From assembly GCF_009914755.1 (NCBI RefSeq), contig NC_060931.1: 64,000 nucleotides of DNA; one strand, 5' to 3'. Of this stretch, positions 2,470 through 59,634 are shown piece after piece. The notes beneath the pieces are model-generated. The model did no database searches. It saw nothing but the letters and a program-made list of their open reading frames with translations, and had not been told where the DNA came from. The position numbers were made by a program, and so were the translations under genes. Every line of letters starts with the position of its first letter. Within the stretch, counting starts at the first letter, position 1. The DNA comes from the human T2T-CHM13v2.0 reference genome, Homo sapiens.

Positions 2470-5400
2470 TCATGACAAGTATATTGAAACAGCCATAAAG
2501 ATAAGGTATCTACCTGGTAAATTCTCAGGGTCTACCAGTAAACCACTGGAAGCCTTTCTTCAGAAAACACAGAGGTAACACTCCTTTGCTGAAGCAAACA
2601 TATTAATTTGCTTTTTTGTTTAATTTGTCTTTATTGTTAAAATCATTACCACCATGGAAAAGCATGCATTAGTTACCAATGGTTCAGAATGTTCTTCTGA
2701 GTACCTTACAAAGATAACTGCATACACCTGTACTGATAATCTTGCAGTCAATACTGCACAAGGTATAAAATGAGACAGGTGCGTCCAGGTAAAGCTCCTG
2801 GATGGTAAGAATTATTTTACTTATCTCTCTATTTCCCAACATACTCAGCATACTGCCTTGTTGGTAAGTGCTTTAGAAATATTTGTTGCATCAAGCCGAA
2901 TTACAGTGAGAAGAGGCAAAGTGTGTATCATGCCAAATCCCTTAATTCCCCAAATCCGCATACTGCCAACAACAAACTGTAAATCAGAACTGCTACAGAT
3001 ATATTTGAACTTCTGTTTAAATTCCTCACTAAGTTAGTGCTTTTAAGTTTAACACTCTAGCCACATTCCTGGCAGGAAGAGAAGCACCAAGAAGGAAAAT
3101 TAGAGAAGTCTAGTCTAGTGCTCATCTTGGCATTGCCATCTGGCTGCAGAAGCCCCAGGGCAAGAGGCATAATGCTTCTCACCCTCAGTTTTCTTACTTG
3201 GGTGGTAAGCGGGAAAGAAGGAGCAAAAGCCAACTTTTTAAACTTTTTTACCACTTAAAAAATAGAAATTTTACACATAACCATATTTAACTGTCATTTG
3301 ATGACTTTCTATCATTAGCGCCATCTTAATGACCAAGCAGCAACTTTCAAAAGGAATGTAGCAGTTACGCATCTTAAAGAGTTCAGAGTCTGATGCTTAG
3401 AAAGGAAAGGACATTTGCTAATTGCCCATATTTTAGGTTGTATGCCTGGTATTTAAGAACCAGCATCATATGAAAACAACACTGGGAATTCACTCTGGGT
3501 TGCCTGGACCACACACTAGCTGGTCCTGGTGATTCTTCTTTTCTCAAATAGGGTAGGGGGCAGCACCCAATTTCAGTTTAAAATGGAATTGAAGACTACT
3601 TCTCTGAGTAGGCCTCTGCAACCCAAGAATGGGCCCCAATATTTCCCAGACTCTCAGAATTTTTATATCAGGCAACTGATAATCCCAGAAAATGCTTGTA
3701 AATATTTAACACTCAAAATCTGGACAGTCTTGGGCCAAACAGCCTATGTATCTCATCTTAATGAAGTTCTTTTCTTATATGAATAAAAAGAGATATCCGT
3801 GGGCCTCCCTAGTGGAATAAAGTCCACACTATATATGATGCAGATTTCCTGACCTCATGTGCCTCTCCACAGACAGATGGGAACATCGGGGGATTTTCAG
3901 TATCTGTGGCTTGTTTGCCCTGGCCTCATCAGTGCTTCCTTTCCCCTACAAATATTCTTCAGTGAATGTCATGTGATGTTTTGCTTGGCCCCTTCCTCCA
4001 CCAATAGAAATCCTTAAGGGATCATCTGGCACAAAAATATCATAGAGAAAACTGTATGGACTTTGGGTTTGAAATGTATTACTTACTGTCATATATTAGT
4101 TCATAGATTAGTATTTAAGTTTTCTTGGTCTTAGCTTCCTCTACAATGAGACTGATCATCCCCTCAGTTTTATTTAGATATTAAATAAAATGATGAATGA
4201 ACATCATTTATCACAGGCTTTGCTACAAAGTATGAACTCTGTCTTTTCATTCTTTTCCATGACTTTTCCAATGTCTTCCATAATCTTCCATCACACGTAC
4301 CTTTTAGTTCTAAAATTAAGAGGAAAAAATGAAGGAATAAGGGAGAGAATTGAAGGACACTTATCAGATAAAGGACTAGAAGTGGAGAGCAGCAAGGCAA
4401 GGAAGCAAACTTGAAAGAAGGATGGTTTCAGAAGAATAGAATAAAACTTCTGGGAAGCTTTTTTTCTGACTTCCAGTATGTTTCGGTATCACCATTAACT
4501 CTAGGCCTAAGCAGAGAGCAGCTGCAAATAATTTTTCTGTTCTTATTTATTTATCCTCAAATAAAGATTGATATATATGAGTTCTCTACATTTTCAGGTA
4601 CTTGTGAGGTCTGCCTGGTATTCAAATTGCACCCTAATAGGTACCAAAGGACGCAGCAGCACTTCACAATACCATGGTCTGTGTTTTGGTAAAGCATCAT
4701 TATAAACCTCCCTGCAAGCTAAGTGGTAACAGTTCCCAAAGACAGACTGCGCTATACAGAGGCTGTCATGATGTGCTTTCATTTATGACCATATGATTTA
4801 TATTGGGCAATGACAACAGCATCATGATAATCACCATGGAATTCAACTTAGAGAGACTTACAACTCTTTAAATGGATACAGTAGCTTTCAAGCTGTCAAA
4901 AAAGAGAAATAGTTTATAACAGCAGCATTTTAACAGGATAAGAAAACAGAGTCCTGTAAATATCAGAATGAGATTATTAATCTGCTATTAATATGAACTG
5001 CCGTGTTTTCTAAGCATGAAAATAAAGCAATTTTCATTTTTGTTGCTCTTTTTTAAGTCAGTCTGACCTCTTGACTTGAAATATTCATTTATAAATGAAT
5101 CACAATCAGAAATATAGGGAGATCAGACCAAATTCTGGACCAAAAGGGAAGGGCTATATTATTATTGGTATTTATCCTCAAAGATGGATGAATATTGTGA
5201 TTTTTAAATTATATTAACTTTGCCCCTGTACACCCCAGTCCACAAAGTATAAATTCCTGTTTTATACTTTTCAAGGTGGTTTTATCCTGTTCAAGGAATT
5301 TTTATGGTGAGTGCAGAAGAACTCTGCAAAGCATCTTCCAAATGGGAATTGCTGATCCAAACGGGAAAAAAAAAATCTGTCTGTTTCTCCTGAAGCCAGT

Positions 5401-54691: not shown

Positions 54692-56385
<1,694 letters not shown>

Positions 56386-56542
56386 CATCACCTTAAGAGG
56401 GACATAGAAAAATACAACATGTTGCTTTATAGATTTTGTCCCTGCACCAAGGACAAAAGTGATGTCCCTGATCTGATTTATATTGAAATACATGTGAGCT
56501 ATATGTACATTTAAGAAAGATTAATAAAAACAAGTAAAATTG

Positions 56543-56845
<303 letters not shown>

Positions 56846-56882
56846 TTACCCAATATTTGGTAAATCAGTGAGTGACAGCCAA

Positions 56883-57763
56883 CAGAGCTCACCTATAAAT
56901 CAATCCTGACTGGGTGGGGCCACCTTTGTGGAGAGTTACTGGATTAGGAATTTAATCATTTTGATTGTTCTTGTAATTAGCTAGCAGTCCATTATCATAA
57001 TCTAATCAATCCAAAAGTGGTTGATTATAAAGTGACATGATTATCTTATTTTTTGAAACCCCATTCATAATTTTAAAATCTCTTTTATTTTCTTAATAAA
57101 TTACACAACTACTAAAAAATTCTAAACATTGCATTTAAGTATAGAAAAGCTCAAACACAGCTGTACTTGGAGGGAGAGGATTGCATCAATTCCTGCATTC
57201 CCTGAAGAATCATTATGATTTCAGTAATATCAAATGCAGAAAATGCTGTGTTGAATAACTCTTAAAATACCGTAAGCAGATATGTTGTTCAGAATGGGAT
57301 TTTTTTTGTATTGGTGAAAAATTTTGTGAATTTCTGGACAAAACTATATACAATGCTCCTGTGATTTATGCAATTGCATTTCTCAAACATTATGAAAATT
57401 AAAACAAGCAACAATACTTGTAATTTATAATTAAATAGGGTACAGCCTTGGAAATTGTCAGCATGTTTATCATCCGCTTTCATGTCTGAAGGTCACTGGA
57501 GAGTCCTATGACATGCTTGCAGGTAGCTTAATTGTCTTGGCCATTCTCAATAGCAGCCCCCATTCACTGGGAGAACCACCAGAGCAAACTCCAGATTTTA
57601 AATGAATCCCGACTGGGTGGTGCCACCTTTGTTGACAGTTACTGCTTTAGGTAATTTAATCATCTTGATTGTTCTTGTCAGGAGTTAGGAATCCATTATC
57701 ACAACCTAATCAATCCAGAAGTCAGGAAGTCTCCACCCACTAATTAAGGTGACTCAATATAAA
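56883..57763 (+). promoter_or_regulatory. Putative SSU72L promoter: duplicated ~140-bp module (56883-57018, 57580-57722) with DUX4-type motifs and a TATA box
   Basis: TAATCTAATCA 56998-57008 and TAATTTAATCA 57652-57662. One-mismatch GAATTTAATCA 56948-56958 and CAACCTAATCA 57702-57712. TGACTCA 57750-57756. TATAAA 57758-57763, ~130 bp upstream of the ATG. Confidence 0.7.
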
Positions 57764-57888
57764 CCTGCCTCCTGTGCCTCCACATTAGCTCATTTGGAAG
57801 ACCTGGGTATAGGTGGTCGTCTCCTTGGCTCAGAGTCCCTGCAGCAGCTGAGGTGCCTGTGTCTCTCTTGTTCCCAGTGGCCACCATC

Positions 57889-58473
57889 ATGCTCTCCTCC
57901 CCACTCAGGGTGGCTGTGGTGTGTGTGAGCAACATCAACAGGAGCATGGAGGCCCACAGCATCCTCAGGAGAAAAGGGCTAAGTGTCCGGTCTTTCGGAA
58001 CTGAATCTCATGTGAGGCTACCAGGACGAAGACCCAATCATCCTGTAGTTTACGATTTTGCAACAACATATAAGGAGATGTACAATGACCTCCTCAGGAA
58101 AGATAGAGAATGCTACACCCACAATGGAATCTTACACATCTTGGGAAGAAATGAGAGAATCAAGCCTGGCCCAGAAAGATTTCAGGAATGCACTGAATTC
58201 TTTGATGTCATCTTTACCTGTGAGGAGCGTGTCTATGACACAGTGGTGGAAGATCTGTGTTCCAGAGAACAGCAGACCTTTCAGCCTGTGCACGTGATCA
58301 ACATGGACATCAAAGATACCCTGGAAGGTGCCATCCTGGGAGCTTTCCTCATCTGTGAGATTTGCCAGTGCCTGCAGCAGTCCGACGACATGGAAGACAG
58401 TCTGGAGGAGCTGCTGTTGCAAATGGAGGAGAAGGCAGGAAAAAGCTTTCTTCACACCGTCTGCTTCTACTGA
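57889..58473 (+). CDS. SSU72L6: SSU72-like RNA polymerase II CTD phosphatase, intronless retrogene, 194 aa
   Basis: MLSSPLRVAVVCVSNINRSMEAH...FLHTVCFY is collinear with recalled human SSU72 (194 aa, about 70% identical, no indels or stops). CX5R (C12/R18) and D140/D143 are retained. The symbol (formerly SSU72P8) is assigned from recalled adjacency to an RPS2 pseudogene and is not verified. Confidence 0.9.
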   Translation: MLSSPLRVAVVCVSNINRSMEAHSILRRKGLSVRSFGTESHVRLPGRRPNHPVVYDFATTYKEMYNDLLRKDRECYTHNGILHILGRNERIKPGPERFQECTEFFDVIFTCEERVYDTVVEDLCSREQQTFQPVHVINMDIKDTLEGAILGAFLICEICQCLQQSDDMEDSLEELLLQMEEKAGKSFLHTVCFY

Positions 58474-59008
58474 AGATCTGGGCTGGCTTTGTCTCCTTCC
58501 TCGGTAAGAACTTAGGCATGGGACTTTAGTCCAGATTGATTGTGAGAAGTATCTACAAAGACCTTCCACTGAGTGCTGTTTGTATTACTTTTGTACATAT
58601 CACCTGGAAAGAGACTATTACCAAGAAAATATTTTATGGGAAATGAGAAGGACTAACAGTTTTAAAAGCACTGAAAAATGCTTGGCATTGTTCTACATGC
58701 ATTACATACAATAACTAATTTAATGCTTATATTATTCTACAAGGAAGCTATCCCACCATGACTGCATTTTCCGGATGAGCAAATGGAGCTGATAATGGAC
58801 TGCTGGAAAAATGATTTGTTTAAGGGTATTCAGCAGATAAATAACATTGTATAGATAAGCACCTTTTAAATAGACTTCCTTTTCTCAATTTGAGTGGTTT
58901 TTTTTTTAATTTTTAAATTTTTTAAGTTATTTGAGACCAATGGAGTGTGGTATATTAACTTAAATGTTGTTCTTCTTTAATAAGAGTATAATATTACATG
59001 TTTGAACC

Positions 59009-59178
59009 AATAAATGTTTTCACATATAGATTATATCTTTTTTACTAATGCTCACTTTAATAGGTAAAATCCAAGTTGGATAATGAACTACATATTATTG
59101 TAAAATTTGGAATTATCTACTCAAATAATAGGTCATCAAATTAAATGAAATAAAAAATTTAAATAAAAAAAAAAAAAA
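59009..59178 (+). terminator. Poly(A) signals and genomic poly(A) tail of the SSU72L cassette
   Basis: AATAAA at 59009-59014, 59149-59154 and 59162-59167. A-run at 59165-59178, then the TSD. Confidence 0.75.
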
Positions 59179-59634
59179 GAAAGAAATCCTGTTCCCAGGA
59201 TCTGCAAAGAACACCACAGCAGTTCTACACATCTGCCTCTCCCCCAGTTCCCCTCCCTGGATGGCAGAGATTTTAATATCATTAAAACTAACTTGGATAT
59301 AGTAGAGGGAAGCTCTTAAAACCCTGACACCAGTGTGGTAGGAGATGGTACGTCAATTGACAGATTCGTTACCCAAGAAGAACGTATACATGCATCATGC
59401 TAGGTACAGGGAGAAAACCAAAGTTAGGCAAAGTATTTTGTCCACTTATTATCTATGTCATTTTCATAGCCAGTAGAACCTCTCAGTAAGTCTCCTAGAC
59501 CTGGCCATGCCCACCATGGCCCAACACTCTCTTCGTCCCTGTCAACTCAAGCCTCTCTACGTACCCTCTACTGGGTCAGACCAGTGACAGATCCATTCCA
59601 GTGAGTTGAACAGCAGAACCAAAGGATGGCATTT

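What the first reader, a model, noticed from the sequence alone, without database searches (positions are those of the whole stretch)
56883..57763. Duplicated DUX4-motif promoter module suggests an embryonic-genome-activation gene
Seen: two diverged copies of a ~140-bp unit (GACTGGGTGG.GCCACCTTTGT...AATTTAATCAT.TTGATTGTTCTTGT...CCATTATCA.AA.CTAATCAATCCA.AAGT) lie ~700 bp apart. Each holds two double-homeodomain sites 50 bp apart, one perfect TAAYYYAATCA and one single-mismatch, with the perfect site swapped between copies. The proximal copy is followed by GGAAGT, CCACCC, TAATTA, TGACTCA and TATAAA. Established: TAAYYYAATCA is the DUX4 consensus, and clustered sites upstream of a TATA box occur in cleavage-stage/FSHD target genes. 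Inference: this SSU72L is DUX4-inducible and expressed around the 4-8-cell stage.
Basis: partly seen in the sequence, partly recalled or inferred. Interest (0 to 1): 0.85.

Follow-up and report, generated by a model that had tools for sequence, protein, structure and literature searches.

The report
Duplicated DUX4-site promoter of SSU72L6
Upstream of the retrogene SSU72L6 lie two copies of a 124-base module, each with one perfect DUX4 binding motif, and this promoter travelled with the gene from chromosome 11 to chromosome 7, so early-embryo (DUX4-type) control is plausible but still unproven.

Summary
Two direct repeats (56896-57018 and 57599-57722, 85% identical, 704 bp apart) each hold one perfect and one single-mismatch TAAYYYAATCA site, 50 bp apart. 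These are the only two perfect sites in the 64-kb window.

The module is not a dispersed repeat. It occurs at 14 places in the genome: two in each of seven SSU72L units (chr7 plus six on chr11).

New here: the chr7 locus is an RNA-mediated copy of a chr11 unit. Homology covers only 56387-59169 and ends in an added A-tail at the chr11 poly(A) site. This unit sits behind a full-length Alu and a 5'-truncated L1. The whole 4.5-kb block is flanked by a target-site duplication at a TT/AAAA site. The gene therefore arrived with 1.45 kb of its own upstream DNA, both modules included.

All seven ORFs are intact (194 aa, Ssu72 domain, dN/dS 0.28-0.39).

DUX4 control stays inferred. I saw no occupancy or induction data, because supplements were closed. 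The motifs show no extra conservation, and one chr11 copy has lost both perfect sites. One preprint reports the SSU72-like family rising together with DUXA, LEUTX, ZSCAN4 and 21 PRAMEF genes, which is circumstantial support.

Verdict: a probable new member of the DUX4/ZGA-type promoter class (confidence about 0.55).

The parts
54696..54710 (+). Left target-site duplication AAAAATGAAATCCTG, preceded by TT (an L1 endonuclease TT/AAAA site).
   Evidence: Read directly. Its 9-nt core GAAATCCTG (54702-54710) recurs at 59183-59191, directly after the A-tail.
54711..55003 (+). Full-length Alu forming the 5' part of the composite insertion. It has a 13-A tail, then GAAAT(AT)n up to 55023. It has no target-site duplication of its own.
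   Evidence: It starts GGCCAGGCATAGTGGCTCA and matches Alus in the chr11 loci.
55024..56385 (+). 5'-truncated L1 3' end (ORF2 C-terminus plus 3' UTR), ending AATAAAATTTAAAAAAA.
   Evidence: the translation of 55501-56157 matches LINE-1 ORF2p residues 1062-1275 (E 2.9e-142). Sequence read.
56387..59169 (+). SSU72L unit shared with the six chr11 copies: 1.45 kb of upstream DNA plus the retrogene. This is the only chr7-chr11 homology.
   Evidence: 92.5-94.4% identity.
56538..56844 (+). Alu inside the unit, shared at the same site with 3 of 6 chr11 copies (L035, L036, L038). The site is empty in L033, L034 and L037.
56896..57018 (+). Distal copy of the 124-bp module.
56948..56958 (+). D1, GAATTTAATCA (1 mismatch; a T is deleted in all 7 distal copies).
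56998..57008 (+). D2, TAATCTAATCA (perfect; the optimal DUX4 sequence). Intact in 6 of 7 units.
57026..57031 (+). TATAAA just after the distal module. It is deleted in L035, L036 and L038.
57019..57598 (+). 580-bp spacer, unique to the seven SSU72L units.
   Evidence: 7 places at E<=10.
57599..57722 (+). Proximal copy of the module.
57652..57662 (+). P1, TAATTTAATCA (perfect). Intact in 6 of 7 units. It lies at -183 from the RefSeq start.
57702..57712 (+). P2, CAACCTAATCA (1 mismatch). Identical in 7 of 7 units.
57723..57763 (+). Core promoter: GGAAGT (kept in 1 of 7 copies), CCACCC (6 of 7), TAATTA (3 of 7), TGACTCA (7 of 7), TATAAA (7 of 7).
57835..59182 (+). SSU72L6 transcript as annotated by RefSeq. 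The CDS is 57889-58473 (194 aa).
   Evidence: Hub annotation. ORF. Pfam Ssu72 E 9e-85. PDB human SSU72 E 3.6e-92 with the CX5R motif kept.
57864..57878 (+). CTCTCTTGTTCCCAG, a 3'-splice-site-like tract that abuts the first base homologous to the parent SSU72 mRNA.
   Evidence: Function untested.
59165..59178 (+). A14 tail added at the chr11-type poly(A) site. The chr11 copies read AAAAA then GTATATTC here.
59183..59191 (+). Core of the right target-site duplication, GAAATCCTG.

Best explanation
The two modules are an old internal duplication in the native upstream region of the SSU72L retrogene family.

What is shown:
- Each module keeps one consensus double-homeodomain (DUX4-type) site plus a decayed partner.
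- The proximal module sits 35-160 bp upstream of a conserved AP-1-like site and a TATA box.
- The promoter is CpG-poor.
- The same arrangement is present in all seven SSU72L units.

What is inferred:
- DUX4, and possibly its target paralogue DUXA, binds P1 (TAATTTAATCA) and the distal D2 (TAATCTAATCA).
- Binding opens the otherwise silent promoter through the known DUX4 co-activator route and drives a TATA-directed transcript.
- That transcript encodes an intact Ssu72-type RNA polymerase II CTD phosphatase.
- The family would then belong to the cleavage-stage, testis and FSHD DUX4 programme.

How this copy reached chr7 (shown by sequence):
- An RNA of a chr11 unit spanned at least 1.45 kb upstream of the gene and ended at the gene's poly(A) site.
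- L1 machinery reverse-transcribed it and joined it to a 5'-truncated L1 and a full-length Alu, most simply by template switching.
- The block inserted at a TT/AAAA site with a 15-bp duplication.
- SSU72L6 therefore brought its promoter with it.

A heritable event of this kind requires that the locus was transcribed in germline or early-embryo cells.
For: Anatomy:
- The repeat and the four sites are as described.
- The module occurs at only 14 places in the genome, two in each of the seven units. The spacer occurs at only 7.
- D2 and P1 are each intact in 6 of 7 units, P2 in 7 of 7, TGACTCA and TATAAA in 7 of 7.
- D2 equals the optimal DUX4 sequence, and P1 fits TAAYBBAATCA (review passage).
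- The pair architecture is rare genome-wide: 21 places, 6 of them SSU72L.
- The parent SSU72 promoter and the chrX retrocopy's upstream kilobase have no such motifs. CpG o/e is 0.11 here against 1.09 for the parent.

Co-expression: the preprint passages report the SSU72-like family rising with DUXA, LEUTX, ZSCAN4 and 21 PRAMEF genes after RBPJ knock-down in WaGa cells.

RNA-mediated move:
- chr7-chr11 homology is limited to 56387-59169, while the chr11 copies stay alike beyond both ends.
- An A14 tail sits where chr11 reads AAAAAGTATATTC.
- The unit is directly preceded by an L1 3' end and a full-length Alu.
- The block is flanked by AAAAATGAAATCCTG and ...GAAATCCTG at a TT/AAAA site.

The gene is functional: 7 of 7 ORFs are intact. 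dN/dS is 0.28-0.39 against the chr11 copies and 0.19 against the parent. The Ssu72 domain and the CX5R motif are present.
Against: - I saw no DUX4 ChIP, DUX4 induction or embryo expression data.
- There is no sign of extra constraint. The fraction of variable columns is 0.237 in the distal module (the highest of all segments), 0.137 in the proximal module, 0.145 in the spacer and 0.098 in the core promoter. In the motifs, 5 of 44 columns vary.
- One chr11 unit (L033) has lost both perfect sites but keeps its ORF.
- Between the two modules, the sites differ about as much as the rest of the sequence.
- Both one-mismatch sites lose the first T of the HD1 TAAT core. Sites with at most one mismatch occur at the chance rate across the window.
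- There are 25,274 perfect motifs in the genome, and only about 1-5% of DUX4-bound repeat elements are activated. A motif alone therefore predicts little.
- The preprint is not peer reviewed, has 2 biological replicates, names no individual SSU72L gene in its text and never mentions DUX4. Reads among 92-99% identical copies are hard to assign.
- The RefSeq start (57835) lies 77 bp after the TATA box rather than the usual distance of about 30 bp.
Confidence: 0.55

Rival explanations
1. This is a germline or testis promoter driven by other factors. In this view the module is a real regulatory element, but it is read by other homeodomain, KLF, SOX or GATA-type factors. The match to the DUX4 consensus would then be incidental to an AT-rich homeobox-site cluster.
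For: - The blocks invariant across all 14 module copies include more than the DUX sites: GGGTGG.GCC (CACCC-type), CCTTTGT, ATTGTT and CCATTATCA (GATA-type), as read. The factor names are recalled, not tested.
- Retrogenes are often testis-expressed (general knowledge).
- The retrocopying event requires germline or early-embryo transcription but does not name the factor.
Against: - D2 is the exact optimal DUX4 11-mer.
- The perfect-plus-near-perfect pair is rare in the genome.
- The family rises together with DUXA, LEUTX, ZSCAN4 and PRAMEF genes in the preprint. This fits a DUX-type programme better than a spermatogenic one.
Confidence: 0.22
2. The modules are a neutral relic. They would be a chance local duplication with no regulatory role. 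Any expression would come from the TATA/AP-1 core or from read-through transcription from upstream.
For: - The distal module is the most variable segment (0.237), and the proximal module varies as much as the spacer.
- L033 has lost both perfect sites.
- The RNA copied to chr7 began at least 1.45 kb upstream, so upstream-initiated transcripts existed.
- Other local duplications occur in the chr11 flanks.
Against: - The gene is under purifying selection in all 7 copies, so it must be expressed from some promoter.
- Finding two independent consensus sites in a 125-bp ancestral unit is unlikely by chance (P about 9e-4, post hoc).
- The co-induction reported in the preprint.
Confidence: 0.13
3. 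The promoter derives from a retroelement LTR. In this view the module and TATA region are remnants of a MaLR/ERVL-type LTR, the repeat class in which most DUX4 sites lie. The promoter would then be an exapted LTR.
For: - About a third of DUX4 sites lie in MaLRs, and these can create promoters (PMC3836709 passages).
- The stretch GGGTGGGGCC..TTTG.GGAG..GATTAGG loosely resembles a MaLR segment I recalled.
- NCBI's mask covers only 18% of the window, so old repeats may be unmasked.
Against: - The recalled 19-nt MaLR-type motif is a genuine high-copy repeat: 2,247 places against 3 for the control.
- A profile built from 12 of those copies finds nothing in 56841-57900 even at E<=100.
- The module matches only the 14 SSU72L places in the genome. 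A module profile finds no other relative in the window or in the fetched loci.
- Sequence after the TATA region is not shared between the two copies, unlike paired LTRs.
Confidence: 0.08

Closest known systems
Promoters of multi-copy DUX4 target genes active at the cleavage stage and in FSHD (ZSCAN4, TRIM43, MBD3L2, LEUTX, the PRAMEF family). The gene names are recalled from the literature. PRAMEF, LEUTX and ZSCAN4 also appear in the preprint passages.
   Same: - Consensus DUX4 sites are clustered within a few hundred bp of a TATA-type, CpG-poor start.
- The gene belongs to a primate-expanded tandem or segmental family.
- The family is reported to rise together with those genes.
   Different: - No DUX4 occupancy or induction has been shown for SSU72L.
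- Only one perfect site remains per module.
- The product is an RNA polymerase II CTD phosphatase paralogue, not a transcription factor, TRIM or PRAME protein.
DUX4-bound MaLR/ERVL LTR promoters (Young et al. 2013, PMC3836709; passages read).
   Same: DUX4 motifs lie upstream of a start site that could act as a germline or embryo promoter. More than one motif favours activation.
   Different: No homology to the repeat family tested. The module is confined to the seven SSU72L units.
Chimeric retrocopies made by L1 reverse-transcriptase template switching (the Buzdin-type U6-L1 and Alu-mRNA chimeras), and L1 3' transduction. Both are recalled, not read here.
   Same: - All parts have the same orientation.
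- The 5'-most part is a full-length small RNA copy (Alu).
- There are A-runs at the internal joints.
- A single target-site duplication at a TT/AAAA site flanks the whole block.
   Different: - The block has three parts.
- The 3' part is not a mature mRNA copy but a 2.78-kb RNA that includes 1.45 kb of promoter DNA and an Alu.
- No source L1 abuts the unit in any of the six extant chr11 copies, so 3' transduction would need a lost source.
Retrogenes that carried promoter sequence from their source through an upstream-initiated transcript (the PGK2 hypothesis and the 'inherited promoter' retrocopies). Recalled, not read here.
   Same: The copy includes the source's upstream regulatory DNA, so it need not recruit a new promoter.
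   Different: The source here is itself an old retrogene (SSU72L on chr11), not the intron-containing parent. The parent SSU72 promoter, a CpG island, is not involved.

Membership tests
Direct DUX4 target promoter | A match to the DUX4 consensus (TAAYBBAATCA) close to the transcription start. | tested here: met
   P1 TAATTTAATCA lies at -183 and D2 TAATCTAATCA at -837 from the RefSeq start. The consensus comes from a review passage.
Direct DUX4 target promoter | DUX4 occupancy in ChIP-seq or CUT&Tag. | not testable with these tools
   No binding data are held.
Direct DUX4 target promoter | Induction of the transcript when DUX4 is expressed, and expression in 4-8-cell embryos. | not testable with these tools
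   The only evidence is circumstantial: the SSU72-like family rises with DUXA, LEUTX, ZSCAN4 and PRAMEF genes in a preprint that does not mention DUX4. No main text links the two.
Direct DUX4 target promoter | Evolutionary retention of the motifs beyond that of their surroundings. | tested here: not met
   5 of 44 motif columns vary, against 0.137-0.237 for the modules and 0.145 for the spacer. L033 has lost D2 and P1. Power is low with seven close copies.
MaLR/ERVL LTR-derived promoter | Sequence homology to an LTR family. | tested here: not met
   A profile of 12 copies of a recalled MaLR-type repeat finds no hit at E<=100. The module occurs at only 14 genomic places. This is a limited test, because no Dfam or RepeatMasker was available.
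Processed retrogene of SSU72 | An intronless ORF colinear with the spliced parent. | tested here: met
   The 194-aa ORF aligns to the five chr1 exons of SSU72 and end to end with human SSU72 in the PDB. Homology starts about 10 nt 5' of the ATG.
L1-mediated (chimeric) retrocopy | A poly(A) tail at the source's polyadenylation site, a target-site duplication, a TT/AAAA target, and parts in one orientation. | tested here: met
   The A14 tail is absent from the chr11 copies. The 15-bp duplication has a 9-nt exact core abutting both ends, and TT precedes the left copy. Alu, L1 and the unit are all on the + strand.
Ssu72 CTD phosphatase (PF04722) | A full-length domain with the catalytic CX5R motif. 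| tested here: met
   Pfam E 9e-85 over profile positions 1-189 of 189. C12 to R18 (CVSNINRS) aligns to CSSNQNRS of human SSU72. Enzyme activity was not tested.

The most novel reading that the evidence does not exclude
The SSU72L genes would be direct DUX4 or DUXA targets: a primate-expanded set of RNA polymerase II CTD phosphatases switched on at human embryonic genome activation, and wrongly in FSHD muscle and some tumours. There they would reshape CTD phosphorylation and transcript termination. The family would also have spread with its DUX-responsive promoter because it is transcribed in exactly the L1-active totipotent or germline cells where reverse transcription can copy it. SSU72L6 would be the product: a three-part Alu-L1-gene chimera that carried its own promoter.
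Probability: 0.3. Interest if true: 0.7.

Novelty: new member of a known kind. Interest (0 to 1): 0.5.

Why it matters
If the SSU72L family is DUX4-driven, the early human embryo and FSHD muscle would express extra copies of the phosphatase that resets the RNA polymerase II tail and helps terminate transcripts. That is a concrete and testable link between DUX4 and the transcription machinery itself.

The family was reclassified from pseudogenes to protein-coding genes only recently (HGNC passage). Older DUX4 target lists may therefore have ignored it.

The locus is also a clean example of a gene moving between chromosomes through RNA while keeping its promoter. This bears on how retrogenes acquire regulation.

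If the motifs prove inert, the finding reduces to an ordinary duplicated stretch upstream of a retrogene.

Tried and rejected
1. MaLR/LTR origin of the module. A recalled 19-nt repeat motif is absent from the window but occurs at 2,247 places in the genome. A profile of the first 12 copies, all on chr1, finds nothing in 56841-57900. Rejected at this sensitivity.

2. Simple tandem duplication of a 704-bp unit. The sequence after the proximal module does not resemble the spacer. Rejected.

3. L1 3' transduction from an extant chr11 L1. In three of the six chr11 loci (L035, L036, L038) the nearest matching L1 3' end lies about 1.8 kb upstream of the unit and is only 84% identical; the other three show no such match within the 10 kb fetched. 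None of the six chr11 copies has an L1 at the unit's 5' edge. Not supported. A lost source cannot be excluded.

4. Independent nested insertions of Alu, L1 and the unit. Neither the Alu nor the L1 has its own target-site duplication. Judged unlikely.

5. A covariance (sequence-only) model of the 14 modules was built, but it cannot be run on this genome.

6. Pfam on the L1 ORF2 fragments gave nothing. The PDB search identified them.

7. Literature. Main-text searches found no link to DUX4 or embryos apart from one preprint. (SSU72 plus retrogene terms) was badly framed and uninformative. SSU72P3 appears only in a thymoma differential-expression table at very low abundance. Mouse Ssu72 is merely a reference gene in PMC4585904.

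Full report
**Observation**

The region holds one clear direct repeat, 56896-57018 versus 57599-57722. It is 85.5% identical over 124 columns, with a spacing of 703-704 bp. Aligning all 14 genomic copies shows that similarity ends after about 125-130 columns. The unit is therefore about 124 bp, not 140 bp.

Each copy carries two + strand sites 50 bp apart:
- D1, GAATTTAATCA (56948)
- D2, TAATCTAATCA (56998)
- P1, TAATTTAATCA (57652)
- P2, CAACCTAATCA (57702)

D2 and P1 are the only perfect TAAYYYAATCA matches in the 64-kb window (shuffle mean 0.83; 23 of 100 shuffles reach 2). Sites with at most one mismatch number 22 against 21.6 expected, so the window as a whole is not enriched. Four of the 22 lie within 765 bp (Poisson P about 1.6e-4). 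Counted as two sites in one ancestral 125-bp unit, P is about 9e-4. Both figures are post hoc.

Genome-wide there are 25,274 perfect sites (reversed-pattern control 15,122), or 8.1 per Mb. The pairing 'perfect plus 10-of-11 at a 36-46 bp gap' occurs at 21 places (control 2). Six of these are SSU72L proximal modules and five lie in one chr10 tandem array. Two perfect sites at a 35-45 bp gap occur at 9 places, none of them SSU72L.

**What the module belongs to**

The module matches only 14 places in the T2T genome, even at E<=10. These are the distal and proximal positions of seven units: this one on chr7 and six on chr11 at 4.29-4.41 Mb. The chr11 units form three convergent pairs. The 580-bp spacer matches the same seven units only. 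A profile of the 14 copies finds nothing else in the window or in the fetched loci. The duplication therefore predates the seven-copy family and is not a recognisable dispersed repeat.

I had a recalled lead that the stretch GGGTGGGGCC...GATTAGG resembles a MaLR LTR, and I tested it. The recalled 19-nt motif is a true high-copy repeat (2,247 places against 3 for the control). However, a profile of 12 of those copies finds nothing in 56841-57900 at E<=100. An LTR origin is not supported, though without Dfam it is not excluded.

**The gene**

The ORF at 57889-58473 is a full Ssu72 domain (Pfam E 9e-85). It aligns end to end with human SSU72 (PDB 3o2s, E 3.6e-92) and keeps the CX5R motif.

The parent SSU72 on chr1 matches exon by exon at only 72-81% identity. 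Homology starts about 10 nt before the ATG. It is directly preceded by CTCTCTTGTTCCCAG, and the parent's CpG-island 5' UTR is not present.

All seven SSU72L ORFs are intact at 194 aa. dN/dS is 0.28-0.39 between SSU72L6 and the chr11 copies (dS 0.085-0.095). Against the parent it is 0.19 (dS about 1.0). This is an old retrogene family under purifying selection.

HGNC recently moved a family member from pseudogene to protein-coding (passage). A G3 paper places SSU72L1-5 in a 116-kb chr11 region (passages).

**How this copy came to chr7**

Homology between chr7 and chr11 is confined to 56387-59169. The chr11 copies remain alike beyond both edges.

At the 3' edge, chr11 reads ...TAAATAAAAAGTATATTC. 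chr7 reads ...TAAAT followed by 14 A, then GAAAGAAATCCTG. This is an added poly(A) tail at the gene's own polyadenylation site.

At the 5' edge the unit abuts the 3' end of an L1 (55024-56385). Translation of 55501-56157 matches ORF2p residues 1062-1275 with E 2.9e-142. The L1 is 5'-truncated and is itself preceded by a full-length Alu (54711-55003).

Neither the Alu nor the L1 has a target-site duplication of its own. Instead, AAAAATGAAATCCTG (54696-54710, preceded by TT) directly abuts the Alu. Its 9-nt core GAAATCCTG recurs directly after the A-tail at 59183-59191.

The simplest reading is one L1-mediated insertion of a three-part chimera. Reverse transcription began at the SSU72L poly(A), ran 2.78 kb, switched to an L1 RNA, and then switched to an Alu RNA. 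L1 3' transduction from a source now lost is the alternative. None of the six extant chr11 copies has an L1 at the unit's 5' edge.

The unit contains an Alu (about 56538-56844) at the same site as in 3 of 6 chr11 copies. It is 94.1-94.4% identical to those three copies and 92.5-92.8% identical to the Alu-less copies. The source was therefore an Alu-bearing chr11 unit. The chr11 copies are more alike to each other than this order predicts, which suggests gene conversion among them.

The consequence for the finding is that SSU72L6 did not acquire this promoter on chr7. It carried 1.45 kb of its upstream DNA, both modules included. An RNA spanning that DNA must have existed in germline or early-embryo cells.

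**Does it work as a DUX4-responsive promoter?**

For:
- D2 is exactly the sequence a review describes as the optimal and most active DUX4 site. P1 fits the ChIP consensus TAAYBBAATCA.
- Elements with several good motifs are activated more often.
- P1 and P2 lie 133-183 bp upstream of the annotated start, ahead of TGACTCA and TATAAA. Both of these are kept in 7 of 7 units.
- The promoter is CpG-poor (o/e 0.11). The parent's promoter has o/e 1.09 and no such motifs, and neither does the upstream kilobase of a chrX SSU72 retrocopy.
- A bioRxiv preprint on Merkel cell carcinoma reports results after RBPJ knock-down in WaGa cells. DUXA, LEUTX, ZSCAN4 and 21 PRAME-family genes rise in 'a broader ZGA-like process'. 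Separately, 'the SSU72-like family' rises enough to enrich the GO term for RNA polymerase II termination (passages). The authors do not connect the two observations and never mention DUX4. To my knowledge, the first set is the classic DUX4 target signature.

Against:
- I saw no binding, induction or embryo data.
- Conservation gives no support. The fractions of variable columns are:

| Segment | Fraction variable |
|---|---|
| Distal module | 0.237 |
| Spacer | 0.145 |
| Proximal module | 0.137 |
| Core promoter | 0.098 |
| 3' UTR | 0.084 |
| CDS | 0.050 |

- 5 of 44 motif columns vary, and unit L033 has lost both D2 and P1.
- GGAAGT is present only on chr7 (1 of 7 units), TAATTA in 3 of 7 and CCACCC in 6 of 7.
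- Both one-mismatch sites lose the first T of the TAAT half-site.
- With 25,274 perfect motifs in the genome, and only about 1-5% of bound repeat elements activated, a motif alone predicts little.

**Verdict**

I put about 0.55 on a DUX-family-responsive promoter, about 0.22 on a germline promoter read by other factors, about 0.13 on a neutral relic, and about 0.08 on an exapted LTR as the origin.

It would be a new member of a known kind, a DUX4-type target family. Its evolutionary history is unusual and well supported: a retrogene re-copied through RNA together with its promoter, as part of an Alu-L1-gene chimera.

Noticed in passing
L022:1482-2063 (G000:C23, about 112,798,706-112,799,287): A separate chrX retrocopy of SSU72 has an intact 194-aa ORF. 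It is 63% identical to SSU72L6, with dN/dS 0.23 against the parent. The arginine of the catalytic CX5R motif reads Q (CWNNQNQS), so it may be a catalytically dead paralogue.
   Followed up: partly
G000:C10:123562558-123562808: A tandem array with a 48-bp period in which each unit carries a perfect TAATCCAATCA. It accounts for 5 of the 9 genome-wide cases of two perfect DUX4-type motifs 35-45 bp apart.
   Followed up: no
L033-L038 (G000:C11:4293100-4409500): T2T chr11 holds six SSU72L units with intact ORFs, arranged as three convergent pairs. The literature passage names five genes, SSU72L1-5. The pairs are Alu-less/Alu-less, Alu/Alu and Alu-less/Alu. This mixture, together with identities of 97.6-99.1% within each type, suggests gene conversion.
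   Followed up: partly
L034, L035, L037 (for example L035:6654-6750): In 3 of 6 chr11 units, the last ~105 bp of the 3' UTR (window 59066-59170) is repeated about 90 bp downstream of the poly(A) site. The chr7 copy ends before this repeat.
   Followed up: no
L033:3046-3146 versus 4108-4208 (also L034, L037; split by the Alu in L035, and likely likewise in L036/L038): A second local duplication of about 100 bp (86% identical). The downstream copy corresponds to window 56483-56541 plus 56841-56879 and lies just before the distal module. The upstream copy lies about 1 kb further 5' on chr11, outside the part copied to chr7.
   Followed up: no
window 57864-57878: A polypyrimidine-CAG tract resembling a 3' splice site ends exactly where homology to the parent SSU72 mRNA begins. 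This hints at a possible spliced upstream exon. RefSeq shows a single exon.
   Followed up: no
L033:4219-4347 and 4942-5071: One chr11 unit has lost both perfect DUX4-type sites (TAAAGTAATCA and TAGTTTAATCA) while keeping an intact ORF. It is a natural 'motif-mutant' promoter that could serve as a control in expression data.
   Followed up: partly
window 57026-57031: The distal module is followed by its own TATAAA. A 15-bp deletion removes it in three chr11 units (L035, L036, L038). A second, upstream start site is conceivable.
   Followed up: no
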